Assembly (NCBI GenBank): GCA_944391535.1 | Contig: CALXTY010000001.1 | Coordinates: 20 to 64,019, forward strand | Direction: 5' to 3' | Length of the DNA: 64,000 bases | Source: an uncultured Alphaproteobacteria bacterium | GTDB taxonomy: Bacteria > Pseudomonadota > Alphaproteobacteria > CAAGCB01 > CAG-977 | Shown here: one piece after another, positions 7,236-64,000 of the stretch | Position numbering within the stretch: position 1 is the first letter of the stretch | Layout: every line of letters begins with the position of its first letter | Notes under the pieces: generated by a model | Seen by the model: the letters and a program-made list of their open reading frames with translations, nothing else | Database searches by the model: none | What the model was told of the DNA's origin: nothing | Translations under genes and position numbers: made by a program

Positions 7236-7951
7236 TATTTTGCTTTTTTAATCGGTTCTGAAGAACGGTTTAGGAAAATATTTTCAAATTTTTTTTGTTG
7301 ATCGATACTTTTTTCCCATCGTTTGGCGGTATGAATATTTTCTGAAATATTTCCGGAACCGTTTTTATAAATAACGGCAAGAGCCATTTTTGCGTTAATA
7401 TCGCCTTGTCTGGCCGCTTTTTGATAAAAGTAAACGGCTTTTTTCATGTTTTTTTCGACATATTCTCCGTTTTCATACCAACGAGCCAACATGATTTGCG
7501 CTTCAGCATCTCCGTTTTCTGCCGCTTTTTGAGCATATTGCAGTCCTTTTTCAAAATCTTGAAGCACATTTTCTCCGTTTATATAAATCAAAGCCATGGT
7601 CATTTGCGCCGGCGCATAGCCTGCATCCGCTGCTTTTTCGTAATAGTCCAAAGCTTTTGTAATATTAACGGGCATTCCTTTTCCCGTAAAATTCATGGCT
7701 CCCAAGGCGAAGGCCGCTTCGGGAAGATTCAGCAGATCGGCTTGAGCAAAATAAACCGACGCTTTTTGATAATCGCCTTTTTCATAATAGCTTAAAGCCC
7801 TGTTTAGCGGATTATAGGAAAAGTTCTTAGGTTGTCGGTTGAGGAAAAAAAAGAAGGTGATTAAACATAAAACGCCGATAAAAATTAAAGCCTTGTAAAG
7901 AGAAATCCGTTCTTTTTTCTGCATTATTGTTTTCCTTTTTCGGACTTTCAC
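7235..7951 (-). CDS. Sel1-repeat protein with N-terminal membrane anchor
   Basis: Contains ALGAMNFTGKG, YYEKAADAGYAPAQ and WYENGEYVEKNMKKAVYFYQKAA Sel1 repeats. Stop/start abuts the upstream Sel1 gene. Confidence 0.7.
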   Translation of the reverse strand: MKVRKRKTIMQKKERISLYKALIFIGVLCLITFFFFLNRQPKNFSYNPLNRALSYYEKGDYQKASVYFAQADLLNLPEAAFALGAMNFTGKGMPVNITKALDYYEKAADAGYAPAQMTMALIYINGENVLQDFEKGLQYAQKAAENGDAEAQIMLARWYENGEYVEKNMKKAVYFYQKAARQGDINAKMALAVIYKNGSGNISENIHTAKRWEKSIDQQKKFENIFLNRSSEPIKKAK

Positions 7952-8053
7952 TGGATAAAAGCAGTATAGACAATCAAAGGTATTTTAAAAGTAAAAAGAT
8001 TGAAAAAACTTTTAATTTTTGCTAATTTTTATTTGTTTTTTATGGAGACCCGA

Positions 8054-9448: not shown

Positions 9449-10670
9449 AGGCCGTGCGGTAACAATTTTTTTGGAAAAACGCAATTGCACGGTAAATGTT
9501 GTGGAAGATCCCGTATCCATCCCTTTTTCCGGCGTTATTGTTAAATCGCCTGGGATCAGTTTGTACCGTCAAGAAATCAAGATGGCAAAACAATACGGAG
9601 CTATTTTTACTTCCGCGACGAATTTATTTCTGGAAGCCGCTCTTTTGCAACCGGAATACAGACCGTTTTTGATCGGCGTGACAGGAACGAAAGGCAAATC
9701 GACGACGTCTTCTTTGATTGCTCATTTGTTAAAAGCGCAGGGACATCGCGTTGCTTTGTGCGGCAATATCGGCGATCCGTCGATTTCTTATGCCGAAGAC
9801 TTGGATAAATATGATATTTTTGTCGTTGAAATGTCCAGTTATCAATGTGCGGATTTGCAATATTCATTTGATATTTCGGTTATTTTGAATTTATATCCGG
9901 AACATATTGATTGGCATAAGACTCATGAACAATATTTTCATGACAAATTAAATATTTTGGCGCATCGCAAACCGGAACAAGGTGTCATATTGAATGCGCA
10001 AGATCCTTTAACGGCGATTTATGTTAAAAAACCGGAAAATGCCGTTTATTTTGACGCATTAAATGCGATACATATCATGGGGGACTATTTTTATGACGGA
10101 ACGAAAAAATTATTTAAAACGGATATCGTTCCGTTACGCGGGGAACATAATTTGAAAAATGTTTGTGCGGCGCTGACTGCTGTTGAACAAGTCAGCGGTT
10201 CATTGATCGGCTGTGAAGAAGCGTTAAAGACGTTTCAAGCCTTACCGCATCGGTTGCAAACGGTGGCTGTTAAAAACGGCGTGACATATGTGGACGACAG
10301 TATTTCAACGACGCCGGAAACGGCGATTGCCGCTTTAAAATCGTTTGGTTATTCCAATGTTGTATTAATAGCCGGCGGTTATGACAGAGAACAAGATTAT
10401 CAAGAGTTGGCCTCTTTTGTTGCTCGAGGAGGCGCTTCGGCTGTTGTTGCTTTGCCTCAGACGGGGCATCGTTTGGCGGAAAGCATTTCGGACAAGGGCG
10501 GAAAAAGCGTTATGGCGATAAATATGAAAGATGCGGTTCAGAAAGCGGCATCTTTGGCTCATTTCGGCGGTGTGGTTCTTCTTTCTCCCGCGGCGCCGAG
10601 TTATGGCACGTACAAGGATTTTCAAGAGCGCGGAGAAGATTTTTTAAGATGTGTCAACGAGTTGGAATAG
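9393..10670 (+). CDS. murD: UDP-N-acetylmuramoylalanine--glutamate ligase (MurD family; possibly the L-Glu-adding MurD2 type)
   Basis: N-terminal Rossmann GNGIEGRA, Mur ligase P-loop GVTGTKGKSTT, and C-terminal domain. Neighbours are not mraY/ftsW. Confidence 0.8.
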   Translation: MLLETLKNRPVTVWGNGIEGRAVTIFLEKRNCTVNVVEDPVSIPFSGVIVKSPGISLYRQEIKMAKQYGAIFTSATNLFLEAALLQPEYRPFLIGVTGTKGKSTTSSLIAHLLKAQGHRVALCGNIGDPSISYAEDLDKYDIFVVEMSSYQCADLQYSFDISVILNLYPEHIDWHKTHEQYFHDKLNILAHRKPEQGVILNAQDPLTAIYVKKPENAVYFDALNAIHIMGDYFYDGTKKLFKTDIVPLRGEHNLKNVCAALTAVEQVSGSLIGCEEALKTFQALPHRLQTVAVKNGVTYVDDSISTTPETAIAALKSFGYSNVVLIAGGYDREQDYQELASFVARGGASAVVALPQTGHRLAESISDKGGKSVMAINMKDAVQKAASLAHFGGVVLLSPAAPSYGTYKDFQERGEDFLRCVNELE

Positions 10671-10675
10671 AACTT

Positions 10676-11263
10676 TTACCGTCTTGCTTTTAAAGCGGTT
10701 TGGATCGTTCCGTCGTCCAGATAATCCAATTCTCCGCCCACGGGAATGCCCTGAGCCAGTGAAGAAATTTTAACGGGCAGTTTTTTAAATCGTTCAATAA
10801 TGTAATGTCCGGTCGTCTGTCCGTCGACGGTGGCGGGCAAAGCCAAAATGATTTCCGAAACTTCCTGTTGCCTGATTCTGTTTTCCAGTACAGGCAGGCG
10901 CAATTCGTCGGGGCCGATGCCTTCTATGGCGGACAGCAATCCGCCCAGAACGTGATATTTTCCTTTAAAAGCCGCGCTACGCTCGATCGCCCATAGATCG
11001 GCGACGTCCTGAACGACGCAGAGAACGGTTTTATCTCGGCGTTGATCTTGGCAAATATGACAAGGGGAGCAAGAATCCAAATTTCCGCAAACAGGGCAGG
11101 TTCGGATATGTTCAATAACGTTCTGAATGCTTTGTGCCAAAGGAACAAGAAGACTTTCCTTTTTTTTAATCAAATGCAGAACGACACGTCTCGCCGATCT
11201 TTTTCCAAATCCCGGCAATCGAGCAAACAGACGGATTAACGACTCCAGTTCCGTTTCAGTCAT
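10676..11263 (-). CDS. recR: Recombination protein RecR
   Basis: C4 zinc finger CPVCGNLDSCSPCHIC, a Toprim domain, and the conserved dnaX-ybaB-recR order. Confidence 0.9.
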   Translation of the reverse strand: MTETELESLIRLFARLPGFGKRSARRVVLHLIKKKESLLVPLAQSIQNVIEHIRTCPVCGNLDSCSPCHICQDQRRDKTVLCVVQDVADLWAIERSAAFKGKYHVLGGLLSAIEGIGPDELRLPVLENRIRQQEVSEIILALPATVDGQTTGHYIIERFKKLPVKISSLAQGIPVGGELDYLDDGTIQTALKARR

Positions 11264-11268
11264 TTTTC

Positions 11269-11577
11269 TTAAAAAGGCAGTTTCATTCCCGGCGGCAGGA
11301 TACCGTTCAGTCCTTGGTTCATTTCCGATACGACTTTTTGTTGCGCATCATTAAAAGCGGCGACAAGCAAGTCTTCCAACACGGCGACGTCTTGCGGATC
11401 AATCAGGGACGGATCGATTTTTACTTTTTTTACTTCGTTTTTGCCACTCATCACGACTTCGACCAGTCCGCCTCCGGCTGATCCCGTTATTTCCGTTTGC
11501 GCCAACTTTTCTTGTTCAGCCAACAGCTTTTGCTGCATTTGTTGAGCTTGTTTCATGATTTGACTAAAATCGGTCAT
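11269..11577 (-). CDS. ybaB: Nucleoid-associated protein YbaB/EbfC
   Basis: 102 aa, Q-rich N-terminus (MKQAQQMQQKL) and the GGGLVEV motif. Lies between dnaX and recR. Confidence 0.85.
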   Translation of the reverse strand: MTDFSQIMKQAQQMQQKLLAEQEKLAQTEITGSAGGGLVEVVMSGKNEVKKVKIDPSLIDPQDVAVLEDLLVAAFNDAQQKVVSEMNQGLNGILPPGMKLPF

Positions 11578-13313
11578 TCGTCATATCCTTCGTTTGTTTG
11601 GGGAGCGATTTGCATTGTTTCATCTGTTTCTTCGATAAAGTCTTCCGATGCGCTTTCATTTTCTTTTAATCGAATTGTATCGATTTTAGCTGACGGGAAA
11701 GCTTTCAGAACAGCCGTCACCAACGGATGTTGCGTCATGGTTTTTTTCAGATTTTCCGCGTTTTGCAACGCTTGTTGACGCAACGTTTGTCCGCCTTGTT
11801 TGTTGACGACGGAAACAACCCAGTTTTGATGCGTCCACAAGCGTAATTTTTCCACCATTTCTCCGGCCAGATGATTCGGCGTCCGTTCCAAGGGGAAGAA
11901 TTCGATTTTGCCTTGTTCAAAAGAAACCACGCTGACAAAATTTTCAACATTGTAAGCAAACATCATTTCGTTTTGCTTATAGGCGTACGCGACGATATCG
12001 GCCAAAGAACGGAACATCACCGACTGTTGGGGCGATATTTGAGGCTGTTCGGCGGGGACAACGTTTCCGATGCTAGGCGCGGCGTTCCAGTTTTTCTGCG
12101 TGACGGCGGACGAAGCCTGCGGATAGCCGTTCGGGATGACGGGAGTTGACGCAGTTTCTGATCTTAACGTTTTAATCAGATCCGCCGGAGTTGGCAGATC
12201 TGCGGCGTAGGCCAAGCGGATCATCACCATTTCGGCCGCCTGTTTTTCCGAGGGAGCTTTGATCGTTTCATCAATTCCCTTGAGCAACATTTGCCATGTT
12301 TTTGTTAAGACGGACATCGGCAAGCTTTCGGCCATTTGCAGACAATGTTGACGTTCTGATGCGGCCATGGATCCGTCATCTGCGAGTTCGGGTGCGATTT
12401 TCACTTTTGTCAACCAATGGGTCAGATCCAACAGATCTTGCAGGACGACGCTCGGAGCCGCGCCGAAGGCATACAGTTTTTCAAAAGTTTCCAGTGCGGT
12501 TTTTATTTCGCCTTTCATCACCTGTTCGTACAAAGAAACAACGGCGGCTCGATCCGCCAACCCGATCATGGATCGCACCAATTCGGCGCTGACTTTTCCG
12601 GCGCCGTGAGCGATGGCCTGATCCAGCAAAGACAGACCGTCTCTGACGGAACCGTCAGCGGCGCGAGCGATTAAATTTAGAGCTTCCTCATCGGCGGAGA
12701 CATTTTCTTTTGCGACGATGTTTTTAAAGTGTTCTGTCAGCAGATCCGGTTCGACGCGTCTAAGATCGAAGCGTTGACACCGGGACAAGACTGTTGTCGG
12801 TACTTTTCGGATTTCCGTTGTGGCAAAGATAAATTTGACGCGTTCGGGCGGTTCTTCCAACGTTTTCAGCAAAGCGTTGAAAGCGGCGGGGGAAAGCATA
12901 TGCACTTCGTCGATGATATAAATTTTAAATCTTGCTGAAGTCGGATTGTAGCGTGTTGTATCAATGATTTCGCGAACATTGGCGACGCCGGTATTGCTGG
13001 CGGCGTCGATTTCGACGACATCGACATGACGGTCTTCGGCGATGGCACGGCAATGTTCGCAAACGCCGCAAGGTTCGGTTGTCATGCCGCCTTTGCCGTC
13101 GGGGCCGATGCAGTTTAATGCCCTGGCGATGATGCGAGCCGAAGTGGTTTTGCCGATTCCGCGAATACCGGTCAAGATATAGGCTTGAGCGATTCTGTTT
13201 GTTTCGATGGCGTTTTTTAACGTTCTGACCAAAGCGTCTTGTCCGATCAGATCGGCGAAGGTCGTCGGTCGGTATTTACGGGCTAAGACGCGGTATTGTG
13301 TATTTTCAGTCAT
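11574..13313 (-). CDS. dnaX: DNA polymerase III subunit tau/gamma
   Basis: AAA+ Walker A GIRGIGKTT, Zn-module CGVCEHC, DEVHML Walker B, and the SRC motif. Confidence 0.9.
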   Translation of the reverse strand: MTENTQYRVLARKYRPTTFADLIGQDALVRTLKNAIETNRIAQAYILTGIRGIGKTTSARIIARALNCIGPDGKGGMTTEPCGVCEHCRAIAEDRHVDVVEIDAASNTGVANVREIIDTTRYNPTSARFKIYIIDEVHMLSPAAFNALLKTLEEPPERVKFIFATTEIRKVPTTVLSRCQRFDLRRVEPDLLTEHFKNIVAKENVSADEEALNLIARAADGSVRDGLSLLDQAIAHGAGKVSAELVRSMIGLADRAAVVSLYEQVMKGEIKTALETFEKLYAFGAAPSVVLQDLLDLTHWLTKVKIAPELADDGSMAASERQHCLQMAESLPMSVLTKTWQMLLKGIDETIKAPSEKQAAEMVMIRLAYAADLPTPADLIKTLRSETASTPVIPNGYPQASSAVTQKNWNAAPSIGNVVPAEQPQISPQQSVMFRSLADIVAYAYKQNEMMFAYNVENFVSVVSFEQGKIEFFPLERTPNHLAGEMVEKLRLWTHQNWVVSVVNKQGGQTLRQQALQNAENLKKTMTQHPLVTAVLKAFPSAKIDTIRLKENESASEDFIEETDETMQIAPQTNEGYDE

Positions 13314-13605
13314 CTTTTTTCGGGAGCGGCGTTAAAATAAAAAAGGAAATCGGACAGCGACCCGCATTGAACCGTTACGGCTGCTTTCTTCCGAACCTGA
13401 CCGGGTTGGCGGCCAAGACGTCCGCGCCGATTTCCGATTTCTATTTATGAGTATTTTTGTTTTAAGTGCAAGCAGAACTTTTTTTATTTTGGAAAATAGG
13501 TTAAAAAAGTCTTATTTTCCGCCGTTTTTTGATCAATGCTTGACAAAAGTCTATTTTGTGTTTTTTCTGTTTGGCACTTAATTTGTTTTTCCAGGAGTAC
13601 GCTTT

Positions 13606-54248: not shown

Positions 54249-55490
54249 TTATAAATAAAGTTCTTCCGGCGTAAAACTTTTTCCGGCGGCGCCATTATTG
54301 ACGACGTGCATATACAACTGATAAAGTTTTTGGGCTTTTTGCAGGGCGAAACGGACGACATCTCTTTGAGTATCGAAGCCTTTTTGAGGATCGATCAAAG
54401 GAACCATAATCCTGATGACGGCTGTTTTTCCGTTTTCTTTAAAGAGCATATCGTTGTCCATATAGGGTTGATAAGGGGCTTGTATCGTCGCCAAAGGCGT
54501 CATTGCGAAAGACAGATCCATAAAGCCCTGCGGCATTTTATGTATAATTTTGATTTCACGTGGAAATTCTTGGGGATCGAATTCGACCCATGCCGCTTCT
54601 TCAGCACTTCCGGTCGGTTTTTGCATTCCCAGTTCGGGAAAAAGTTTTTTAACAAAAATTTGCATATCGTTAAAAAATTTCCCCACAATAGTATCTTCGG
54701 CTTCGCGATATCCGGGGGGCAGATTAAAGACGCCTCCGGGGAAGACGCGAAAGTCTGATGCGGAAGCTTTCTTTTTCGGGGTAAAGAGCATTTCACTATG
54801 TTGTGCGGAGATACCTTGCGAGGCAGACTGAAAAGCGAGCGCTTCTGTTGATATGTTTTGACAGGACGTCATTTGTTTTTTATCAGTGGCGGAATCGTTT
54901 TGATTTTGGACAATCGCACAGGATGTGACAGGCGGATTGTCTTGTTGCATTTGTCTGCGCCCTTGTTCGATCGCTTGTCGGATCAGCGTTTTTTTATAGG
55001 CGGATCTTTCGGGGGTGGCGCTGTTAGATTCAGCGGCGGCGCGTAAAAACCAATGTTCTATTTCTTCATAGCTCAGGTAGCTGGAAAAGTATTCGGAAGG
55101 TTCAAGGCTTGAAAAATAGGCTTGAGGAGAGAATAGACAAGTTAGATATTCATCCCAATATCCCTCTTGGACGCCTTTTTCGCCGAATTCAAAATATCGT
55201 TGAGCTTGCAGATTTTGTTTTGGCTGGTCAATTTTGTTTTCAATCAGTATAGCGCATTTCTGTCTGTTTGTCATTTCTTCAAAAACAAACAAGATATCGA
55301 CGGATCCCAGCGGTTCTAAGGAGGGGGTGTGCCATGCGCCGATCATTCGTCTGAATTGGCGCGTGCCGTTATAAAGTTTACTGACCAACCATTTTTTAAA
55401 AGGGTCAGAGGACAGCATTTCTTCTAAAACCAGAAGATCCATGTCTCTTTCGGCCAACAAAGTAAACGGAGGAGCGGCTAAATCAATCAT
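54249..55490 (-). CDS. Hypothetical protein with N-terminal PD-(D/E)xK (RecB-like) nuclease motifs
   Basis: D(ILFVFEE)...ILIENKID...QAQRY, i.e. D / ExK / QxxxY motifs within the first ~110 aa. The C-terminal ~300 aa are unassigned. Confidence 0.4.
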   Translation of the reverse strand: MIDLAAPPFTLLAERDMDLLVLEEMLSSDPFKKWLVSKLYNGTRQFRRMIGAWHTPSLEPLGSVDILFVFEEMTNRQKCAILIENKIDQPKQNLQAQRYFEFGEKGVQEGYWDEYLTCLFSPQAYFSSLEPSEYFSSYLSYEEIEHWFLRAAAESNSATPERSAYKKTLIRQAIEQGRRQMQQDNPPVTSCAIVQNQNDSATDKKQMTSCQNISTEALAFQSASQGISAQHSEMLFTPKKKASASDFRVFPGGVFNLPPGYREAEDTIVGKFFNDMQIFVKKLFPELGMQKPTGSAEEAAWVEFDPQEFPREIKIIHKMPQGFMDLSFAMTPLATIQAPYQPYMDNDMLFKENGKTAVIRIMVPLIDPQKGFDTQRDVVRFALQKAQKLYQLYMHVVNNGAAGKSFTPEELYL

Positions 55491-55547: not shown

Positions 55548-56291
55548 TCAAACATTAAAAAAGATTGATTTTCCGTGACGCATAATATTTTCAGCTTGTT
55601 GTGTTCTGGATCCGTCCGAGTGCATCAGGACGATCCCCGCGGATAATGTGGCGGCGGAACGTACACCTTTTCTTGCGATGACGATAAAACGTTTGGCGGG
55701 CAATCCTTCTTTTGTCCATATGGGCACAATCTGCAGGGCTCCCAATCTGGGATACAGCAGGGTCATGATTTCCGGCAATCGGTCGGCTCTGTTAATCATT
55801 GCGAAGCGACCGCGGGCGGAAACGTAGCGCAGACAGTTTAAGATCCATTCGTTCAAGGGACACTCTGATTCTCGGTGAGCGATATCGCGGATTTTAGAAG
55901 GAGAGGGTTGTTTATCAAGAACAAAGGGAGGATTTGTTACGACCCAATCGAAAGTCCCTGTTTGCAAACCGTCGATTTTTTTGGAACGTATATCGGCTTG
56001 CAAGATATTGATTTTGTCGGACAGTCGGTTCATGGCAATATTATCCCGAGCCAAATTGATCATTTCAGTTTGGATTTCGATTCCTTTTATTGTTATGTCG
56101 GGGCATCTGGCCGCTATACATAAGCTGACGGCCGCCGAACCGGCGCCGACGTCAAGGATTTTTTGTCCTTTTTTTGCGTTGACGCACGCTGCGAGCAGGA
56201 CGGCGTCGCTGGTCGCCCGATAACCGTTGACCGGTTGCTTTAGTTTAATTTTACCGCCCAAGAAATCGTCAATTGTAAAAGGATAATCCAT
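55548..56291 (-). CDS. trmN6: tRNA1(Val) (adenine37-N6)-methyltransferase
   Basis: Class I MTase motif I ILDVGAGSAAVSL and the TNPPF catalytic motif. Confidence 0.7.
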   Translation of the reverse strand: MDYPFTIDDFLGGKIKLKQPVNGYRATSDAVLLAACVNAKKGQKILDVGAGSAAVSLCIAARCPDITIKGIEIQTEMINLARDNIAMNRLSDKINILQADIRSKKIDGLQTGTFDWVVTNPPFVLDKQPSPSKIRDIAHRESECPLNEWILNCLRYVSARGRFAMINRADRLPEIMTLLYPRLGALQIVPIWTKEGLPAKRFIVIARKGVRSAATLSAGIVLMHSDGSRTQQAENIMRHGKSIFFNV

Positions 56292-56400
56292 GTGTCACCT
56301 GTAAAGATTGAAGCAGTGTACATTTTTTTTAAGGATAAAGTAACTTTTTTCTTGCAGCTGTGAATTTTTATGTTATTCTCGGCGCTGTATTGAATGACGT

Positions 56401-56476
<76 letters not shown>

Positions 56477-56483
56477 TAAAAAC

Positions 56484-56507
56484 CGCAGGAAACTGCGGAT
56501 TTTTTAT
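56484..56507 (+). terminator. Terminator hairpin after tRNA-Ala (CCGCAGgaaaCTGCGG + T6)
   Basis: 6-bp stem with GAAA loop, followed by ATTTTTTAT. Confidence 0.55.
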
Positions 56508-56625
56508 GCCTAAAAGAAAATGGTTAATTTTTAAGTTTTGCATTTTTTGACTATTTTTTGACCGTTTTGACACCTGAAAACATCTTCTTTGACAATCGAG
56601 AACCGTAAAAATTCTTTTGCGCGGG

Positions 56626-56785
56626 TAATTTCGGAAATTTCGATTTTAACAAAAGCAATCTGTCGTCCTTCTTACGGAATTTCGGTAATAAGGGAAACGA
56701 TAAACCTCTTTTCTTATTTTATCGGCGATTCTTGTGAAAGAGCTATCTTCGGTATTTTCGGGAAAACTCGGAAATCTCGTTTCAG
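56626..56785. repeat. Four copies of a TCGGnAATTTCG-like motif between tRNA-Ala and the HU gene
   Basis: The four copies are tcggaaatttcga, cggaatttcgg, tcggtattttcgg and tcggaaatctcg. They are spaced irregularly within 160 bp. Confidence 0.25.
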
Positions 56786-56791
56786 GCATAA

Positions 56792-56825
56792 AAAAGGCGC
56801 GTCCGAACGGACACGCCTTTATCTG
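56792..56825. terminator. Bidirectional hairpin terminator 3' of the HU gene (GGCGCGTCCgaacGGACACGCC flanked by A- and T-runs)
   Basis: 9-bp stem with one mismatch. A5 upstream and T-rich downstream. Confidence 0.45.
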
Positions 56826-56839
56826 TTTTTGAACCGGTA

Positions 56840-57112
56840 TTAGTTCAAGGCGTCTTTCAGACCTTTACCGGCTTTGAATTTCGGCTGTTTGGAAGCCGGA
56901 ATCTTGATTTTGGCACCGGTGCGCGGATTGCGACCTTCGGCCGCAGCACGCTTGGCAACGCTGAACGTGCTGAAGCCGACCAAGCGAACTTCGTCGCCTT
57001 TTTTCAATGTCGCGGCAACCGTGTTCAACAAGGCTTCCGTCGCTTTTTCGGAATCAACTTTCGTCAAGCCGGTGTTCTTCGCGATTTCAGCCACTAATTC
57101 TGCTTTGTTCAT
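56840..57112 (-). CDS. DNA-binding protein HU
   Basis: 90 aa. Contains MNKAELV, the beta-arm RNPRTGA and KIPA, i.e. the canonical HU/IHF fold signature. Confidence 0.9.
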   Translation of the reverse strand: MNKAELVAEIAKNTGLTKVDSEKATEALLNTVAATLKKGDEVRLVGFSTFSVAKRAAAEGRNPRTGAKIKIPASKQPKFKAGKGLKDALN

Positions 57113-57744
57113 AATGCAACTCCATAATCAAATATAAACAGAAGCACAGCTTATCCTTTTTTCAAGGTTTAAGCAAAGTCTTTTCTTGATTGTCAATGCC
57201 CTGTCGCTTAATAGAAAGGTCATTTTCCTTTTTCTAAATTGATACGTGAAACCAAAAAATATTGTCTAAACAAGAACAATGCATTATAATTACTCCTAAT
57301 AAGAAGTTGCAGTCCTATTGTATAGACTGTTTTTCCCTTCTTCTTTTTCAATATTTTTTAGAATTGAAAGGACGAATGACAATGGAAATATCAGTTTATT
57401 TAATCTGTTCTTCTTTTACAGTTTCTCTGGGCGGGAGATAAGAACAAATCTATACAATTGGACGAAACCCGAGAAGCTGTAAAAACGAAAAAAATCTCCC
57501 ACCAAAATAGAGGAGCCTTTTAATTAAGGCTCCTTTTCTCTTGATTGTCAATTCCCTCCGCCTGACGGAAGAAAAACGGTTTCCCCGACTTTCGCTCCGG
57601 TGTCGTTGCAAGCCGGGCGATTCCCCTCCTTTTTCTTGGAATGACAATCGCTTTCTTCTCCCCGACGAAGCACCTCGTAAGGGTTTCAGGCGCGACGCCA
57701 AAAACCCTTTAACAAGTGCTTTTTACAGAGAAGGAGCTTTCAAA

Positions 57745-58617
57745 ATGACTGATAAATTCGACCTCATCGAAACCGTTTCAAACACCATCATCGAACGTTT
57801 GGAAAACTTTTCGGGCGAATGGGAAAAGCCGTTCATTTCCTCTTTTGCCCGGAACATCACGACAAAAAAGGCTTATCGCGGCATCAATATCCTAATTTTG
57901 AACTTTGCCGCTTTGTTCAACGGATTTTCTTCGTCCGTTTGGGGAACTTATCGGCAATGGCAGGAAAAAGGCTATCAGGTCAAGAAAGGCTCAAAGGCGA
58001 CGACCATCGTTTTCTGGAAGCCGCTTTCGTATAAATGCGAAGTCGAAAACACGGAAACCGGGGACATCGAAGAAGTCGAAAATCAGGCTTTTGTCGCCCG
58101 CGCTTATTCCGTTTTTAACGGTTCGCAAGTCGAGGGATTCGGCGAAGACATCGAAAAAGCCGAATTTAGCGTTGAAAAGGACGTGATGGCGTTCTTTGAA
58201 AACACGGACATCACCTATTTTTACGGCGCGACTTTGGCAGGCTATGACCCGAAAAACAATGTTGTCTTAATGCCGGAAAGAAAAGACTTCAAAACGGAAA
58301 CCGGTTTCGTTTCGACTTTGGCGCACGAAACAATCCACGCGACCGGACACAAGAACCGCTTAAACCGGGATATGAAAGGCCGTTTCGGAAATGAATCCTA
58401 CGCCTTTGAGGAACTGATCGCCGACATCGGCGCGGGATTTGTCGCCGGATATTTAGGCTATGACTATCAATTCAGCAAAAACAACCTTGCATATCTTAAA
58501 TCTTGGCTCAAGGTTTTGAAGAACGACAAAAAGGCGATTTTCAAAGCCTGCTCCGAAGCGCAAAAGGCTTTTGACTATCTGCTGACATTTCAGGAAATCG
58601 GACGGGAAGCGGCTTGA
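57745..58617 (+). CDS. ardC: ArdC-family antirestriction protein (ssDNA-binding N-domain + zincin-like metalloprotease domain)
   Basis: N-terminal YRGINILIL, C-terminal HExxH (LAHETIHATGH). AAGGAG RBS lies 8 nt before the ATG at 57745 (the ORF track begins at 57541 upstream of the RBS). Confidence 0.75.
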   Translation: MTDKFDLIETVSNTIIERLENFSGEWEKPFISSFARNITTKKAYRGINILILNFAALFNGFSSSVWGTYRQWQEKGYQVKKGSKATTIVFWKPLSYKCEVENTETGDIEEVENQAFVARAYSVFNGSQVEGFGEDIEKAEFSVEKDVMAFFENTDITYFYGATLAGYDPKNNVVLMPERKDFKTETGFVSTLAHETIHATGHKNRLNRDMKGRFGNESYAFEELIADIGAGFVAGYLGYDYQFSKNNLAYLKSWLKVLKNDKKAIFKACSEAQKAFDYLLTFQEIGREAA

Positions 58618-58647
58618 CCGCTTCCCGCAAAAAGAGGAGAAAGGACA

Positions 58648-58809
58648 ATGAAGATTGCATTTTTCAGACTGACGGTTTACGGCGCGGACGGCTACGAAAA
58701 AGAACATTTCGATTTTCACAGCAAAGCCGCGCAACTGTCCAAATTTTACGAACTGATAGCGCAGGGCTACAAGCGCAACGATTTGGAAAAGACGACATAT
58801 TACTTCTAA
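58648..58809 (+). CDS. Small hypothetical protein (53 aa) downstream of ardC
   Basis: AGGAGAAAGG RBS and ATG at 58648. Product is MKIAFFRLTVYGADGYEKEHFDFHSKAAQLSKFYELIAQGYKRNDLEKTTYYF. Below the ORF-track cutoff. Confidence 0.3.
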   Translation: MKIAFFRLTVYGADGYEKEHFDFHSKAAQLSKFYELIAQGYKRNDLEKTTYYF

Positions 58810-58903
58810 AAAATTCGGGCAGACACGATGCTGTGTCCGCCCCATTTTTCGCCCGATGCCACACCCGATTGCTTCGCAATCCGCCCGAAAAAAAATTTGT
58901 TCT

Positions 58904-60319
58904 TTAAGCATCTGTATTTTCATCATATTCTTCTGTTGGTAATTTTCTAATCTTATCAGATAAATGATCAACGAAAGACCTTAATTGTTCTAAACATTCA
59001 TCATAAGTAATTATACGCACATTTTTTTGATTATTTCTATAAAGTTCAAATGAGCGTTTATGAGATTTTTCAGTTAAACTGTTTAATTTTCCAACAATCA
59101 ACAATCCTTGAACATTATAGGCTTCAATATTTTTTTCTTCTGTCTCATGTGCTAGATTTGCAATATTAGTTTCAAGGTTATATTTTTGTGCTAAGAATTG
59201 AGATATTGCACCTGATAATTCATCAGACGGCGCAAAAACATCTGTTCCTCTATATGGTGTAATTTCTAATAACTTTGTAGATGGTTTCTTTATTTCAACA
59301 ATAAATGTATTATTTACAATTTTATGTTTTAGCAAAAAGTCAGGATATTTTCCATTGGTATTGTCAAACGATTTTCCACCAACATATGCTTGACTTTTAA
59401 ATTGTATATAAGGAGACCCCGCAAACAACGTCAACAACATAGGATTTTTTTGTAAAAAGTCTTGGTAACATTCCTCTTTGTGATTACCGCTAATTAAAAT
59501 CTCAAATTCATTTTTTAGAGCAGTCAGATATCCGAAGTCGATATTATCTTTTATTGCTAAAAGCCCCTCTTTATCTGCTGATGATATGTTTGATTTTTGG
59601 AAATCAACATTTCTAAGCGTCTTATATATAACATCCTTTTTTAGAGGAACTTTCTTTTCTGGATATTTCGTAGGAGCCAATTTATGTAAAATTTCTGAAT
59701 ACACAAATAAGGATTTACTGAAAGAAATTTCATCTCTCCCCTTTTCAACAATTCTATCAAGTCCACGTCTTATGGCATCTAAGTCCATATCATTTATAGT
59801 TATAGATGTTTCATTTACTTCTGATATACCATTTTTATTTATAATTAACTCAGAACAATTAGGTTGTTCTTCTGATATTTTTCGGGCAATTATATGATAT
59901 TCTCTTCTAAATCCCAATCCCTGAACAAGTGTAGATAAAAAAAGTTTTGGTAATCCTTTTAAAACACTAAATTTTCCATCATCACTTTTTTCTATACTAA
60001 TTTTATATCCATTAAAAATAATTCTTTCTATACCGTATTTTGGGAGTAAGAAATTTGGACTCTGTGCAAAAGTATTAAATGGATAAATTTTTGTAATTTT
60101 GTTTTTTGTATCAATTTCTAAAAGTAATTTGATGTGTTTTTTGTCCGTTTTTTCATCTTCTATAATGACGTCAGTTACGCTATCTATATAGGAATAAAAA
60201 CATTTTATTCTGCCATTATCTTCCTCTATCTTTATTCGTTCTTCTGCTGATTTCACTACGTCAAAATCAAGACCATCAGCGTCAAAATCGTCAAAGTTTA
60301 TTTCTTCTGTTGCATCCAT
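58904..60319 (-). CDS. Shedu-like defence protein (C-terminal DUF4263 PD-(D/E)xK nuclease domain, divergent N-terminal domain)
   Basis: C-terminal YPDFLL...TFIVEIKKP...GAISQ gives D / ExK / Q motifs in the order typical of DUF4263. Looks strongly AT-rich by eye. Lies 168 bp downstream of gajB on the same strand. Confidence 0.5.
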   Translation of the reverse strand: MDATEEINFDDFDADGLDFDVVKSAEERIKIEEDNGRIKCFYSYIDSVTDVIIEDEKTDKKHIKLLLEIDTKNKITKIYPFNTFAQSPNFLLPKYGIERIIFNGYKISIEKSDDGKFSVLKGLPKLFLSTLVQGLGFRREYHIIARKISEEQPNCSELIINKNGISEVNETSITINDMDLDAIRRGLDRIVEKGRDEISFSKSLFVYSEILHKLAPTKYPEKKVPLKKDVIYKTLRNVDFQKSNISSADKEGLLAIKDNIDFGYLTALKNEFEILISGNHKEECYQDFLQKNPMLLTLFAGSPYIQFKSQAYVGGKSFDNTNGKYPDFLLKHKIVNNTFIVEIKKPSTKLLEITPYRGTDVFAPSDELSGAISQFLAQKYNLETNIANLAHETEEKNIEAYNVQGLLIVGKLNSLTEKSHKRSFELYRNNQKNVRIITYDECLEQLRSFVDHLSDKIRKLPTEEYDENTDA

Positions 60320-60487
60320 TGTTCAGACTCCAATCAGCTTTATATTTTCTTTGAGAGATAACCTAAAGTTTAATCGACGTAAAGGTGTAATTAGAATTAA
60401 TTTTTTGAAGCTTTCAAGGCTATTATCAGATTAAAAAAATTGATATACGAAACAATCGAATCTGTTTGATTTTCGACAAAATCTATT

Positions 60488-62242
60488 TTAAGTGAGATTG
60501 GTTTTTTTTTGGAGATATTGAGTATAAGTAAAATAGTTTTTCTCCCCGACAAGATTAAGTAGAAACGATTTGAATTTATCGTCAATAGGTATAGATACAA
60601 ACAGAAATAACCTTTTTTTAGGCCTAGAACAGCATACATAAAACAAATTACGGTTTCTCTCAAAAGAAGGTTTGTCTTTTTCAGGAATGTCAGATTCTTT
60701 TGTAAACAGAGGGACAAACTTTTCAAACTGATAAAGATTCCATCCTTTGCTGATTACGAAAACAACATTTTCATATTCTTCTCCTTTAACGCCATGTTCC
60801 GTAGAAAAGAGAGCTTCGGGATACAAAAAATCTATAGCGGCCAAAAATTGTGAGTAATCTAAATCTAGAAATGATTGAACAGAGGTATCTGAAAAATATA
60901 TTGTTTCAGGCGCATTATGGTAGATACCATACCATTTATCCAATTCTGGGGATGTTGGGATTAGCTTCATTTGATATATAATTTCAATAATATCAATGGC
61001 TTTTTTGCTTCGAGCTTTTTCTAATCTTTTTTGAAAAATTTTCCATTTACTTTTTTCGGATTTCTTAGTAATTGGATATCTCTTAATTTTAAGTGTATCA
61101 AAAAGCAGCTGCATATTGGATGTTTCGAGGGCGTTGTAGATTGGTTCAACTATGTTCATAAAAAACAAAAGAAAAGGATCTTCTTTATTTTTTAAACTAT
61201 CTTTTAGAATGTATAAAAGTTTTTCATAACCTTGTTGCATAGCAAGAACGTTATGCGTAATCATTAAAACTTTCATCTTTTCGTCACTGGCTATATCTTG
61301 CGCTATTTTTTCAGTAATTTTAGTTAATCGGATTTTTAACTCTTCTGATGGTAAATCATCTTTAAAACTACGGTCTGTACGGCGAACACCGGTATAATCC
61401 TCACATGTGATTACAGTAACCTCACCTTGAAAATCATCAATTGCAGATATTTGTGGCAGGCTTGGACGAAGAATACTTAAAAGCTCAACGATTTTTGGCG
61501 CAGATCTAAAATTGGATTTTTTTTCTATGACTTTTAGATTTCCGTGTTCAATAATACCACATGCTTTGTTGGATTGATATATAGTTTGCCACGCATCTCC
61601 GAAAAAACCAAATTGAGGAGCTTTATTTTCAGAAATAAAATATTTAATGAAACGTTCAATAATCGGATTATAAGAATCTTGATACTCATCAATCAGAATT
61701 AAAGGGTATTTACTTGAAAATATATGGCGAAATTTTGCATTATCCAAAAGCTTGCAAAATAAATCCAACACTTCATTGTGGTAAAGAAACCGAATACCGT
61801 TTTCTATATATCGGTGTCCTAAAGTATATGTAACTTCAGAAATCTCGTCTGATTCATCTTGATGATCTATTATGAAGTTTGAATCTGTTTTAACAGCATT
61901 AATAAGAAAGCTCTGATACTGCTTGATTGCATTCCAAGCAAAGGAATGTATTGTAGAAGGAATAATGAAAGAATCTTTTGGTAATCTTTCTGTTATTACA
62001 TCAACGGCTGCATTTGTATAAGTGATGCAAACTATATTCTGCTTTCTTTTGTTATATTCAGCCCATTTGTTCGATTGAAGCCATTCAATGGCCTTATTAA
62101 GGGAGTAGGTTTTACCAGAACCCGCGCCAGCTTCAACACGAAAACTTTTTCCTTCTTGTAATGCTTCTATAATCTGTTGATCCGCTTTATCGGCTTCGGC
62201 TTTTGCGTGTTCATAATTAGAACTGTATTGATTTTTGTCCAT
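60488..62242 (-). CDS. gajB: Gabija GajB, UvrD/PcrA-like helicase
   Basis: SF1 helicase motifs I (GAGSGKTYSL), Ia (CITYTNAAVDVITERL) and II (LILIDEYQDS). Immediately downstream of an OLD-family ATPase-TOPRIM gene. Confidence 0.7.
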   Translation of the reverse strand: MDKNQYSSNYEHAKAEADKADQQIIEALQEGKSFRVEAGAGSGKTYSLNKAIEWLQSNKWAEYNKRKQNIVCITYTNAAVDVITERLPKDSFIIPSTIHSFAWNAIKQYQSFLINAVKTDSNFIIDHQDESDEISEVTYTLGHRYIENGIRFLYHNEVLDLFCKLLDNAKFRHIFSSKYPLILIDEYQDSYNPIIERFIKYFISENKAPQFGFFGDAWQTIYQSNKACGIIEHGNLKVIEKKSNFRSAPKIVELLSILRPSLPQISAIDDFQGEVTVITCEDYTGVRRTDRSFKDDLPSEELKIRLTKITEKIAQDIASDEKMKVLMITHNVLAMQQGYEKLLYILKDSLKNKEDPFLLFFMNIVEPIYNALETSNMQLLFDTLKIKRYPITKKSEKSKWKIFQKRLEKARSKKAIDIIEIIYQMKLIPTSPELDKWYGIYHNAPETIYFSDTSVQSFLDLDYSQFLAAIDFLYPEALFSTEHGVKGEEYENVVFVISKGWNLYQFEKFVPLFTKESDIPEKDKPSFERNRNLFYVCCSRPKKRLFLFVSIPIDDKFKSFLLNLVGEKNYFTYTQYLQKKTNLT

Positions 62243-62256
62243 AAATAAATTCCTTC

Positions 62257-64000
62257 CTATTCAAGAACTTTCTGGTCATTAAGCCACTTTAATCCAGATT
62301 TAATATACGCAGGAATGGTATATTCATGATATTCGTATATAAGTTTAAGGGCAAAAGTCGTTTTGCTTTTTTCATTAAATTCCAGATCGTCTTCGGTTGG
62401 GGGATCATTCAATTTATAATATTCGCGATTAACATTCCTAATTGCTTCCTCTAAAGAATGACCGCACAATCCGTTTTCCATTGTTTGAAATTCAATGTGG
62501 CATTTGTCTTTAGTTTTATCGTCGGGAGACATTGTTACAATGTCATTCAGAGTGATTTTCGTTTTATCATCTTCTGAAGACTGCTTGTTCCTACGAATCC
62601 ACCATTTTAATGTTTCATTGGATGTTGTATCGCCACTAGAAACAGGGGAAGATTTATAATATTTTTTCCCGTTTCTAGTTTGTTCCGACATAGAATCCAA
62701 ATCGGTAAGAATAAGGCATGGAATACCTAAAAACTCAGCAAAAGGAATAAACTTATAAGCATATGCCCCTCCAATTTCTATTAAAGCATAATACTGAGCA
62801 GGCAACTTATATTTTTGAGAATCGAAAATGCCTTCTTCCCCGCACTTTTCAATCATATCAGGTAGCAACAGACGTTCTGACGCACCTTCAACAAAGATAG
62901 CTTTATCAGCAAAAAATAAATCACATTTGGTTAGAGTAAGGTATTTTCTAATAAAATCGATGTTGTCAGAATGTTTCTGAGCAAATGTATTCAAATTTTT
63001 ATAAACAACCCCTGTTTTTGTTTTCTGAGCATACCGTATTTTCGAGAAAACCATAGTATTTGCGATGTGAGCAGAATGAGATGTCAAAAAAGTCTGAATT
63101 TTTACAGAGGTAATTTTTTTTAGAAAAGCTTCTAAGTAATCTGCAAAGGCGTGTTGCATCTGTGGATGCATATGTGACTCAGGTTCTTCAATGAATAATA
63201 ACGGAATGCAAGCTGTTCCGCATTGTTCCACTTCCTTTGCAAACGCTGCGAGAAGAAATTCCATTTTAATCAAATTCTTATACCCAAGACCATTAGAAGA
63301 ACCGGGGAGAAATTCTTCACTGTTCCCAGCTGTATAGGAAAGCCGTGTCTGATTTATTATTTGATCATTAATGTTTAATTGAGTTGTAACGCCTAATTGA
63401 AGTTCTTCGCCATTGGGATACCCAAAACCAATTGCACTACTTACAAGCTCACCCAGAATTTGATCACTTAGTTGCTGAATGTCTTTATTTGCTTTTTCGA
63501 CAGCGGAACGTAATTGCTTTATTTTTTTTGAAACATCTGAACCTAATTCATCTTCACTACGTTCAAAGAATTTTGAAATTAGTTCTAATAAAGAATCTTT
63601 TTGTGTCCCATCTTCTCCGAGAGAGCGTTCTGCTGGAATAATATCGTAAGGGAAAAGCTCTTTTAATTCTTTATATGATTTAAGCTGTTTTTCTTCAGGG
63701 TGCTTAGGGTTTACTGCATATACAGTAAATTCAAAAAGATTTTGAAAATTGGTAATAATAGTATTATGTGCATCTGTTTTAGGGGAAAAGGAGCCATCTT
63801 TATAATAGCTTTCTTCTAAAAGATTAAATAATTTCTTCTCATCTGATTTTAATTTAAATTCCACGCGGATCAGAGCTTCGTTTATACTCTCATCTACATC
63901 AATGATAAAAGGTGATAATGCGCCTAAATTATCACCCGAGGCCTCTAAAGAATAATTTACAAAAAACTCTATAGATATAGGCTCAATCTGCTCACATAAT
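62257..64000 (-). CDS. gajA: Gabija GajA, OLD-family ABC-ATPase + TOPRIM nuclease (5'-partial; N-terminus beyond window end)
   Basis: Walker B/D-loop LLFIEEPESHMHPQMQ, a C-terminal TOPRIM motif FVEGASERLLLPD, and DxD. The reading frame stays open to nt 64000. Precedes the UvrD-like gene by 14 nt. Confidence 0.7.
   Translation of the reverse strand, partial: LCEQIEPISIEFFVNYSLEASGDNLGALSPFIIDVDESINEALIRVEFKLKSDEKKLFNLLEESYYKDGSFSPKTDAHNTIITNFQNLFEFTVYAVNPKHPEEKQLKSYKELKELFPYDIIPAERSLGEDGTQKDSLLELISKFFERSEDELGSDVSKKIKQLRSAVEKANKDIQQLSDQILGELVSSAIGFGYPNGEELQLGVTTQLNINDQIINQTRLSYTAGNSEEFLPGSSNGLGYKNLIKMEFLLAAFAKEVEQCGTACIPLLFIEEPESHMHPQMQHAFADYLEAFLKKITSVKIQTFLTSHSAHIANTMVFSKIRYAQKTKTGVVYKNLNTFAQKHSDNIDFIRKYLTLTKCDLFFADKAIFVEGASERLLLPDMIEKCGEEGIFDSQKYKLPAQYYALIEIGGAYAYKFIPFAEFLGIPCLILTDLDSMSEQTRNGKKYYKSSPVSSGDTTSNETLKWWIRRNKQSSEDDKTKITLNDIVTMSPDDKTKDKCHIEFQTMENGLCGHSLEEAIRNVNREYYKLNDPPTEDDLEFNEKSKTTFALKLIYEYHEYTIPAYIKSGLKWLNDQKVLE

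What the first reader, a model, noticed from the sequence alone, without database searches (positions are those of the whole stretch)
60488..64000. Gabija (gajA-gajB) anti-phage defence system in a segment that looks strongly AT-rich by eye, running off the window end
An OLD-family ATPase-TOPRIM protein (IEEPESHMHP; FVEGASERLLLPD) is followed 14 nt later by a UvrD-like SF1 helicase (GAGSGKTYS; DEYQD). This is the defining two-gene architecture of Gabija. The segment looks far more AT-rich than the housekeeping genes in the window (judged by eye, not computed), which suggests recent horizontal acquisition. gajA is truncated by the window, so the Walker A motif and the upstream boundary of the island are not visible.
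Basis: partly seen in the sequence, partly recalled or inferred. Interest (0 to 1): 0.7.

Follow-up and report, generated by a model that had tools for sequence, protein, structure and literature searches.

The report
Gabija defence operon on mobile island
The flagged segment is an ordinary but real Gabija anti-phage system (gajA nuclease plus gajB helicase) that sits beside a Shedu nuclease gene in an AT-rich cassette on a horizontally transferred element inserted next to a tRNA-Ala gene.

Summary
The observation and the interpretation both hold. On the minus strand, gajA (62257 to beyond 64000; residues 82-661 of a 661-aa protein) is followed after a 14-nt spacer by gajB (60488-62242, 584 aa). 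Both match curated Gabija profiles almost end to end (GajA 8e-208 for the full-length identical protein, GajB 3e-196). The Toprim, ABC ATPase and SF1 helicase catalytic motifs are present and invariant in relatives. The pair is adjacent in 79 of 80 related genome loci. The rival readings (PARIS AriA, stand-alone OLD, housekeeping UvrD/Rep) fail. The AT-richness is real: 31.9% GC against 44.1% for the rest.

A Shedu gene (sduA, 58904-60319) completes the low-GC cassette. The cassette lies on a mobilisable or conjugative element (ArdC, HU; MobC and relaxase just beyond the window). The near edge of that element is inside the window, directly after tRNA-Ala (about 56477-56485).

The element is 100% identical in a second metagenome whose chromosomal flank is only 70-85% identical, so transfer was recent. 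This is a new instance of a well-known, very common system. Its mechanism is inferred by homology only.

The parts
62257..64000 (-). gajA, 3' 88% of the gene (residues 82-661 of 661). It is a class 2 OLD-family protein with an ABC-type ATPase and a C-terminal Toprim nuclease. The Walker A motif lies beyond the window.
   Evidence: PADLOC GajA PDLC00063 scores 1.1e-164 and 8.4e-208 for the identical full-length protein from L001. Pfam finds AAA_15 and OLD-like_TOPRIM. The frame is open to the window end. Walker B IEEPE is at 63163-63192 and the H-loop TSHSAH at 63067-63084. Toprim E452/E456 are at 62857-62895 and DxD D514/D516 at 62692-62715. These motifs are invariant in 25 relatives and align with the TsOLD and BpOLD active-site motifs.
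62243..62256 (-). 14-nt gajA-gajB spacer (GAAGGAATTTATTT) with a ribosome-binding site; the two genes form an operon junction.
   Evidence: A gajA homologue ends about 14-40 nt upstream of gajB in nearly all of the 80 related genome loci.
60488..62242 (-). gajB, complete (584 aa). It is a UvrD-like SF1A helicase/NTPase.
   Evidence: PADLOC GajB PDLC00113 scores 2.9e-196 over profile positions 4-576 of 579. Pfam finds UvrD-helicase and AAA_19. Walker A is at 62102-62128, the DEYQD box at 61676-61690, motif III GDAWQTIY at 61577-61600, motif V at 60773-60802 and motif VI at 60608-60640; all are invariant in relatives. The best Foldseek PDB hit of the AF2 model is B. cereus GajB (8jqb_E, 1.7e-8; 8tjy_B, TMt 0.66).
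60320..60487 (-). 168-nt AT-rich gap between gajB and sduA (GC 0.274). No terminator-like site was detected.
58904..60319 (-). sduA (471 aa), a Shedu single-gene defence nuclease with a DUF4263/PD-(D/E)xK domain. It is the third gene of the low-GC cassette but an independent system.
   Evidence: PADLOC SduA PDLC00384 scores 9.3e-100 and Pfam SduA_C 3e-27. The PD...EIK motif is at 59282-59347. Relatives are named 'Shedu immune nuclease family protein'. None of the 80 gajAB loci has an sduA homologue. Two relatives examined stand alone, without OLD or UvrD neighbours.
58817..58842 (-). Terminator-like hairpin followed by a T-run, directly downstream of sduA. It is the likely 3' end of the defence transcription unit or units, and GC rises to backbone level here.
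57745..58617 (+). ardC-like anti-restriction gene (290 aa; the true ATG is at 57745). It is backbone of the mobile element and convergent with the defence cassette.
   Evidence: Pfam finds ArdcN 1.1e-32 and MPTase-PolyVal 1.8e-37. The start was read from the sequence and from the 290-aa gene calls in L001 and L002. GC is 0.463.
57534..57762 (+). Structured leader of about 228 nt plus the first six codons (MTDKFD) of ardC. It is one copy of a direct repeat. The second copy precedes a 137-aa gene just beyond gajA, so the two copies bracket ardC and the defence cassette.
   Evidence: blastn of the window against L001-L006. Four-way alignment at about 95% identity. ssDNA folding z-scores of -4.06 and -4.03 on the two strands.
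56840..57112 (-). HU-type DNA-binding protein gene carried on the element.
   Evidence: Pfam Bac_DNA_binding 2.8e-33. It lies inside the tract that is 100% identical between the window and L001.
56401..56485 (+). tRNA-Ala(GGC) and the junction just after it. This is the near edge of the strain-variable or horizontally transferred region.
   Evidence: ARAGORN and Rfam identify the tRNA. Identity between the window and L001 jumps from 70-85% to 100% at the tRNA. Same-host contig L095 diverges 8 nt after the tRNA 3' end, and L092 diverges inside the T-arm.

Best explanation
The segment encodes a two-gene Gabija anti-phage (and probably anti-plasmid) system, gajA followed by gajB, transcribed on the minus strand.

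What is shown:
- GajA has an ABC-type ATPase fused to a Toprim nuclease with a complete two-metal site.
- GajB is a UvrD-like SF1A helicase with all of its NTPase motifs.
- The two genes are separated by 14 nt, and the pairing is conserved across phyla.

What is inferred by homology to the Bacillus cereus system:
- The proteins assemble into a GajA4-GajB4 complex.
- GajA nicks or cleaves invading DNA through its Toprim site and is held in check by cellular nucleotide levels sensed by its ATPase domain.
- GajB is stimulated by DNA ends, hydrolyses (d)ATP and (d)GTP, and so couples end sensing to further nuclease activation.
- Recent work on a Pseudomonas Gabija suggests that the preferred targets are linear DNA ends not occupied by RecBCD.

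The system is one third of a 5.6-kb, 32%-GC cassette (gajA-gajB-sduA). The cassette is carried, together with ArdC, HU and MobC/relaxase genes, on an element located immediately 3' of tRNA-Ala(GGC). It was acquired recently by horizontal transfer.
For: - Profile matches: GajA 1.1e-164 for the window part and 8.4e-208 for the full-length protein; GajB 2.9e-196; both almost end to end.
- Domains: AAA_15, OLD-like_TOPRIM and UvrD-helicase.
- Catalytic residues are present and invariant in relatives: Toprim E452, E456, D514 and D516; Walker B E352/E353; GajB K44 and D185-E-Y-Q-D189. Walker A K36 is invariant in the 25-sequence alignment and present in the identical L001 protein.
- The Toprim motifs align with the class 2 OLD nucleases TsOLD 6p74 (1.8e-13) and BpOLD 6nk8 (3.6e-7).
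- The top structural hit of the GajB model is B. cereus GajB.
- A gajA homologue lies immediately upstream of gajB in 79 of 80 genome loci from Bacillota, Actinomycetota, Fusobacteriota, Pseudomonadota, Bacteroidota and other phyla.
- The helicase is not a housekeeping enzyme.
- Horizontal transfer is supported by GC and GC3, by the identity step at the tRNA, by alternative sequences at the same tRNA in the same host, and by relaxase, MobC and T4SS genes next to gajA on contigs carrying the identical genes.
- The mechanism is taken from PMC8136825, bioRxiv 10.1101/2023.05.02.539174, PMC10781630, PMC10822852 and PMC12407980.
Against: - No experiment exists for this subfamily.
- The subfamily is remote from the characterised B. 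cereus proteins. Sequence searches of the PDB with family profiles found OLD nucleases and UvrD, Rep and PcrA, but not the solved GajA or GajB chains. GajB is only 17-25% identical to BcGajB in the structural alignment.
- The GajB model is mediocre (pLDDT 58.5) and the GajA model was unusable (pLDDT 35.7). Fold-level support therefore exists only for the N-terminal half of GajB.
- The first 81 codons of gajA, including Walker A, are not in the window. Their integrity is inferred from identical contigs.
- One metagenomic variant (L005) carries a frameshifted gajA.
Confidence: 0.88

Rival explanations
1. gajA, gajB and sduA form one integrated three-gene defence module, a Gabija-Shedu hybrid in which the Shedu nuclease acts with or is controlled by GajAB, rather than two independent systems lying side by side.
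For: - The three genes are on the same strand and share the same unusually low GC (0.29-0.34).
- No terminator-like site lies between gajB and sduA, and a single terminator follows sduA.
- All contigs that carry the identical GajB and extend far enough also carry sduA directly downstream.
Against: - None of the 80 loci with 52-75% identical gajAB has an sduA homologue nearby.
- The nearest SduA relatives outside this element (about 50% identity) come mainly from Bacteroidota and Chlorobi-type organisms, a different distribution from the Clostridia-dominated gajAB relatives.
- Two such relatives examined stand alone.
- Shedu is an established single-gene system (bioRxiv 10.1101/2023.08.10.552762 and 10.1101/2023.08.10.552793).
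Confidence: 0.07
2. The OLD nuclease and helicase pair serves the mobile element itself, for example in DNA processing, maintenance or exclusion of rival elements during conjugation, rather than protecting the host from phage.
For: - The pair lies between an ardC leader and the MobC/relaxase genes of a mobilisable or conjugative element.
- More distant relatives (32-35% identity) sit mostly on conjugative plasmids.
- Gabija has been reported to act on plasmids as well as phages (PMC12407980 abstract).
Against: - The cassette has a composition foreign to the element backbone (0.32 against 0.45-0.50 GC).
- It is transcribed in the opposite direction to the transfer genes.
- In 80 other genomes its relatives occur without ardC. 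It therefore looks like cargo, not core transfer machinery.
Confidence: 0.04
3. The locus in this particular genome is a decaying or inactive remnant.
For: The gajA 5' end cannot be seen in the window. A frameshifted gajA (417 + 261 aa) exists in one metagenome (L005).
Against: - The visible 580 codons have no stop and are identical to intact 661-aa copies on nine other contigs.
- All catalytic motifs are intact.
Confidence: 0.04

Closest known systems
Gabija (GajA/GajB) of Bacillus cereus VD045, PDB 8SM3, 8JQB, 8TK0 and others
   Same: - Two-gene gajA-then-gajB operon.
- GajA is an ABC ATPase fused to a Toprim domain with an invariant Glu and a DxD motif.
- GajB is an SF1A UvrD-like helicase with Walker A and a DExQD box.
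- Both are called by the same family of PADLOC models.
- B. cereus GajB is the top structural hit.
   Different: - A very divergent subfamily: GajB is 17-25% identical to BcGajB in the structural alignment, and HMMER profile searches do not detect the solved chains.
- The proteins are longer. GajB is 584 aa against 493-499 residues in the solved chains, and GajA is 661 aa.
- The recognition sequence, nucleotide sensing and the 4:4 assembly are untested here.
Class 2 OLD nucleases TsOLD (6P74) and BpOLD (6NK8)
   Same: These are the best sequence matches among solved structures. The Walker B and H-loop region and the Toprim motifs FVEG..ER and LTDxD align. Class 2 is defined by a neighbouring UvrD/PcrA/Rep-like helicase (PMC10781630), which is present here.
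   Different: Identity is low and the matches are partial (53 bits and 32 bits). Those proteins were studied as isolated nucleases, not as defence systems.
PARIS AriA and phage P2 Old (class 1 OLD)
   Same: The N-terminal ABC ATPase is homologous (PADLOC AriA 9.6e-40, Old 2.7e-32).
   Different: The AriA model covers only residues 1-394. Here the Toprim domain is fused and no AriB follows. Old is a stand-alone protein, whereas this protein has a helicase partner 14 nt downstream. GajA models score 690 bits against 135 bits for AriA and 110 bits for Old.
Shedu (SduA), for the neighbouring gene 58904-60319
   Same: A C-terminal DUF4263/SduA_C nuclease domain with a PD...E-x-K motif, in a single gene.
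   Different: The N-terminal sensor region is subfamily-specific. The closest relatives outside this element are only about 50% identical.

Membership tests
Gabija | GajA matches curated GajA profile HMMs over its full length | tested here: met
   PDLC00063 scores 1.1e-164 for the window part (profile positions 128-664 of 679). It scores 8.4e-208 for the identical full-length protein from L001 (positions 1-664 of 679).
Gabija | GajA N-terminal ABC-type ATPase with Walker A, signature, Walker B and H-loop | tested here: met
   Signature NGLGYKN, Walker B LLFIEEPE and H-loop TSHSAH are in the window. Walker A GRNNTGKTS lies outside the window but is present in the contig L001 copy whose visible part is 100% identical. 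All are invariant in 25 relatives.
Gabija | GajA C-terminal Toprim nuclease with invariant Glu, Gly and DxD (BcGajA E379, G409, D432/D434; PMC10781630) | tested here: met
   FVE452G..E456R, G491-G492 and LTD514LD516 are invariant and align with the BpOLD and TsOLD active-site motifs. Pfam OLD-like_TOPRIM scores 1.3e-16.
Gabija | GajB is an SF1A UvrD-like helicase with Walker A Gx4GK[T/S] and a DExQD box | tested here: met
   PDLC00113 scores 2.9e-196. GAGSGK44T and D185EYQD189, plus motifs III-VI, are invariant. Foldseek's top hit is BcGajB (model pLDDT only 58.5).
Gabija | gajA immediately followed by gajB in one operon | tested here: met
   A 14-nt spacer with a ribosome-binding site. The pair is adjacent in 79 of 80 related genome loci.
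Gabija | GajA4-GajB4 supramolecular complex | not testable with these tools
   Only monomer predictions were possible, and the GajA model failed (pLDDT 35.7).
Gabija | Nucleotide-inhibited, sequence-specific DNA nicking by GajA, and DNA-end-stimulated (d)A/(d)GTPase activity of GajB | not testable with these tools
   These are biochemical properties known for B. cereus proteins only (PMC8136825; 10.1101/2023.05.02.539174).
Gabija | Protection against phage infection | not testable with these tools
   Requires a plaque assay with the cloned operon.
PARIS (AriA/AriB) | ATPase AriA without a nuclease domain, paired with a separate Toprim/DUF4435 protein AriB | tested here: not met
   The AriA model covers only the ATPase half (residues 1-394). 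The Toprim domain is fused in the same polypeptide, and the downstream gene is a helicase.
Class 1 OLD (P2 Old-like) | Stand-alone OLD nuclease with no helicase partner | tested here: not met
   A UvrD-like gene lies 14 nt downstream and is conserved in relatives. The PADLOC Old model scores 110 bits against 690 bits for GajA.
Housekeeping UvrD/Rep/PcrA | Scores above the NCBIfam equivalog cut-offs, with conserved chromosomal synteny | tested here: not met
   Scores are 33.8 against a cut-off of 1144 (UvrD), 30.7 against 1168 (Rep) and 39.2 against 911 (PcrA). The gene lies in a strain-variable region absent from other contigs of the same host.
Shedu (neighbouring gene) | Single protein with a C-terminal DUF4263/SduA_C PD-(D/E)xK nuclease domain | tested here: met
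   Pfam SduA_C scores 96 bits against a cut-off of 27. PADLOC SduA scores 9.3e-100. The PD...EIK motif is present.

The most novel reading that the evidence does not exclude
The 5.6-kb low-GC gajA-gajB-sduA block may be a co-transcribed cassette of two nuclease systems (Gabija and Shedu), both reported to act at DNA ends. It may have been captured into the establishment or anti-defence region of a mobilisable element, between two copies of a duplicated, strongly structured 228-nt leader that drives ardC and a 137-aa gene. On this reading, the mobile element would deliver defence and anti-defence functions as one early-expressed package, and this remote Gabija subfamily could differ mechanistically from the B. 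cereus prototype.
Probability: 0.1. Interest if true: 0.35.

Novelty: new member of a known kind. Interest (0 to 1): 0.17.

Why it matters
Gabija is among the most common defence systems; PMC10781630 reports it in more than 15% of sequenced genomes. One more instance adds little by itself.

The locus has modest value in three ways.

- It is a clean example of defence cargo (Gabija, Shedu, and in sister contigs a type III restriction-modification system) moving at 100% identity between diverged human-gut hosts. It travels on a mobile element inserted next to a tRNA gene.
- It represents a Gabija subfamily that is abundant in gut Clostridia but remote from the only structurally characterised one.
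- Such a subfamily would be a reasonable choice for testing how general the B. cereus and Pseudomonas mechanisms are.

Tried and rejected
- **AlphaFold2 of a full-length GajA proxy.** I used P0121 (94% identical) with a 25-sequence alignment. Mean pLDDT was 35.7, so no fold search was run on it. The alignment was too shallow, with all hits at least 72% identical.
- **AlphaFold2 of GajB.** pLDDT was 58.5. Only the 1A/1B half is confident, and the Foldseek result is used as weak support only.
- **PDB sequence searches.** A single GajA sequence and the family profiles A1 and A2 were tried, up to E = 10. The B. cereus GajA and GajB chains were not retrieved. Only OLD, PtuA and Rad50 (for GajA) and Rep, UvrD and PcrA (for GajB) came back.
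- **DNA searches of the cassette.** There was no match against the plasmid collection (megablast) or the phage collection (blastn).
- **Terminal repeats at the edges of the low-GC cassette.** I looked for direct or inverted repeats that would mark a transposon or an att site. Only short matches of chance quality were found.
- **Rfam scan of 56300-64000.** Only the tRNA reached threshold.
- **Exact-sequence look-ups.** The window's ArdC and the Shedu relative P0283 are not on record.
- **Host identification.** Cluster look-ups carry no organism names. The host is only tentatively an alphaproteobacterium: DnaX passes NCBIfam NF006585 (805 bits against a cut-off of 604), and linking that model to Alphaproteobacteria rests on my memory.
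- **Far end of the island.** It could not be reached. It lies beyond the 10-kb flanks obtainable from permitted look-ups.


Full report
**Observation**

Six-frame ORF listing shows three consecutive minus-strand genes at the right end of the window.

- A 471-aa ORF at 58904-60319.
- A 584-aa ORF at 60488-62242.
- An ORF from 62257 whose frame stays open to the window edge.

The spacer between the second and third genes is exactly 14 nt, GAAGGAATTTATTT, and it carries a ribosome-binding site.

- GC is 0.319 for 58904-64000 and 0.441 for 1-56400.
- No 5.1-kb window elsewhere falls below 0.399 (mean 0.442, sd 0.026).
- Third-position GC is 0.17-0.27 in the three genes and 0.43-0.60 in dnaX, fabF, nhaA and the other chromosomal genes.

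**Identity of the two genes**

Against PADLOC-DB, the truncated upstream protein matches GajA model PDLC00063 at 1.1e-164 (profile positions 128-664 of 679). The downstream protein matches GajB model PDLC00113 at 2.9e-196 (positions 4-576 of 579). Pfam finds AAA_15 plus OLD-like_TOPRIM in the first and UvrD-helicase plus AAA_19 in the second.

An exact-sequence look-up of GajB found ten human-gut metagenome contigs that encode the identical protein. On nine of them gajA is an intact 661-aa gene. The 580 residues visible in the window are identical to residues 82-661 of that protein. The full-length protein matches the GajA model end to end at 8.4e-208. It carries the Walker A motif GRNNTGKTS that the window lacks.

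All catalytic positions are invariant in a 25-sequence family alignment.

- GajA: Walker A K36; Walker B E352/E353; H-loop H389; Toprim E452, E456, D514 and D516.
- GajB: K44; D185-E-Y-Q-D189; motifs III-VI.

The Toprim motifs align with those of the class 2 OLD nucleases TsOLD (6p74, 1.8e-13) and BpOLD (6nk8, 3.6e-7). These are the structures used in PMC10781630 to define the GajA active site.

- PARIS AriA matches only the ATPase half (residues 1-394) at 135 bits, and P2 Old scores 110 bits, against 690 bits for GajA. The Toprim domain is fused and the next gene is a helicase, so neither PARIS nor a stand-alone class 1 OLD fits.
- The helicase scores 30-40 bits against the NCBIfam UvrD, Rep and PcrA equivalogs, whose cut-offs are 911-1168 bits. 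It is not a housekeeping enzyme.

**Conservation of the pair**

A scan of one genome per species returned 80 loci encoding GajB relatives at 52-72% identity. Most are Clostridia, with some from Actinomycetota, Fusobacterium, Sutterella, Oxalobacter, Succinivibrionaceae, Prevotella and Saccharibacteria. In 79 of the 80 loci a GajA homologue lies directly upstream. The exception is a 5'-truncated gajB. None of the 80 has a Shedu or ArdC homologue nearby.

**Distance from the characterised system**

Searches of PDB sequences, with a single sequence and with family profiles, did not retrieve the solved B. cereus GajA or GajB chains.

An AlphaFold2 model of GajB was mediocre (pLDDT 58.5; the first ~215 residues, taken here as the 1A/1B half, are mostly confident). 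Even so, its best Foldseek hit in the PDB is B. cereus GajB (8jqb_E, 1.7e-8). Domain-level matches reach TMt 0.64-0.66 at 24-25% identity (8tjy_B, 8x5n_E). UvrD and PcrA rank just behind. The model of a GajA proxy failed (pLDDT 35.7) and was not used.

The locus therefore belongs to Gabija by architecture, motifs and curated profiles. It represents a subfamily remote from the one whose biochemistry is known.

The 471-aa ORF at 58904-60319 is a Shedu nuclease. PADLOC SduA scores 9.3e-100, Pfam SduA_C scores 3e-27, and a PD...EIK motif is present.

It shares the low GC of gajAB. No terminator-like site separates it from gajB, and a hairpin with a T-run at 58842-58817 follows it.

Three results argue that it is a separate system.

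- Outside this element, its relatives are about 50% identical and come largely from Bacteroidota and Chlorobi-type organisms. Several are annotated 'Shedu immune nuclease family protein'.
- Two such relatives examined stand alone.
- Shedu is an established single-gene system.

I therefore treat it as an independent system that became linked to gajAB in this cassette. I give the 'integrated three-gene system' reading about 7%.

**Genomic context**

Binned identity between the window and contig L001 is 70-85% to the left of tRNA-Ala(GGC) (56401-56476). It is 100% from the tRNA to the window end, except for about 97% in 58001-59000.

Contigs from the same host, 99.9% identical on the chromosomal side, carry different DNA after the tRNA. 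L095 diverges 8 nt past the tRNA 3' end. L092 diverges inside the T-arm and carries a hybrid tRNA. The 3' flank of this tRNA is thus a hotspot for variable DNA, and the near edge of the element is at window position ~56477-56485.

The element carries, in order:

- an HU gene (56840-57112);
- an ArdC-like anti-restriction gene (57745-58617);
- the defence cassette;
- beyond the window on sister contigs, a 137-aa and a 90-aa gene and then MobC and a relaxase;
- after those, either a type III restriction-modification system with DUF4391 (L001, L003) or VirD4- and VirB11-like conjugation genes (L002).

The low-GC tract is confined to gajA with its roughly 190-nt upstream region, gajB and sduA (L001 ~7800-13400). 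The backbone has a GC of 0.45-0.50.

No terminal repeats mark the cassette edges. No plasmid or phage record matches at the DNA level. Distant GajB relatives (32-35% identity) lie mostly on conjugative alphaproteobacterial plasmids, next to genes annotated 'ATP-dependent endonuclease'.

**Mechanism**

The following steps are inferred by homology.

- GajA and GajB form a 4:4 complex (PMC10781630, PMC10822852).
- GajA nicks or cleaves DNA through its Toprim site and is inhibited by nucleotides (PMC8136825).
- GajB senses DNA termini and hydrolyses (d)ATP and (d)GTP (bioRxiv 10.1101/2023.05.02.539174).
- A Pseudomonas Gabija preferentially attacks linear DNA ends not loaded with RecBCD (PMC12407980).

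What is shown here is only that every residue these activities require is present and conserved. None of the activities was or could be tested.

**Verdict**

This is a new instance of a very common, well-described system. Interest is low (0.17).

Noticed in passing
window 58904-60319 (-): A complete Shedu gene (sduA, 471 aa) lies directly downstream of gajB in the same low-GC block. It is not mentioned in the finding. It appears to be an independent single-gene system, recently linked to gajAB on this element only.
   Followed up: yes
window 57534-57762 (+); second copy at L001 7574-7807: A leader of about 228 nt, plus the first six codons (MTDKFD), is duplicated as a direct repeat at about 95% identity. 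One copy lies upstream of ardC. The other lies upstream of a 137-aa gene just beyond gajA, so the two copies bracket ardC and the defence cassette. The leader folds strongly as single-stranded DNA on both strands (z about -4), and a CTTGATTGTCAAT box recurs at 57186 and 57540. It could be an ssDNA promoter or establishment-gene leader like those in plasmid leading regions (PMC11541004); this was not tested. Several short metagenome contigs end near the repeat.
   Followed up: partly
window 56401-56485 (+); L092, L095: The 3' flank of tRNA-Ala(GGC) carries three different sequences in contigs of the same host lineage. In L092 the tRNA T-arm and acceptor 3' strand are replaced, which creates a T5-T68 mismatch, as expected for a different element integrated within the tRNA. 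This marks an integration hotspot.
   Followed up: partly
L001 1-6650; L002 1-6611 (beyond window end): Upstream of gajA, contigs with the identical Gabija genes carry MobC and a relaxase. These are followed either by a type III restriction-modification system with DUF4391 (L001, L003) or by VirD4- and VirB11-like conjugation genes (L002). The same defence cassette therefore sits in at least two element variants. L002 and L004 also replace the HU side with a Y-family polymerase fragment and an IS110 transposase.
   Followed up: partly
L005 2483-4478: In one metagenome contig, gajA is split into 417-aa and 261-aa ORFs (a frameshift) while gajB is identical. This is either a decaying copy or an assembly error.
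   Followed up: no
window 54249-55490 (-): A 413-aa chromosomal protein next to an MTS-family methyltransferase (55548-56291) gives weak hits to PD-(D/E)xK nuclease PDDEXK_4 (0.0043) and to the PADLOC candidate system PDC-S26 (2e-5). It is conserved with the host flank in L001, and may be a further, chromosomal defence-like gene.
   Followed up: no
window 58648-58809 (+): A 53-aa ORF between ardC and the convergent terminator is called as a gene on all sister contigs. It has no Pfam or PADLOC match.
   Followed up: no
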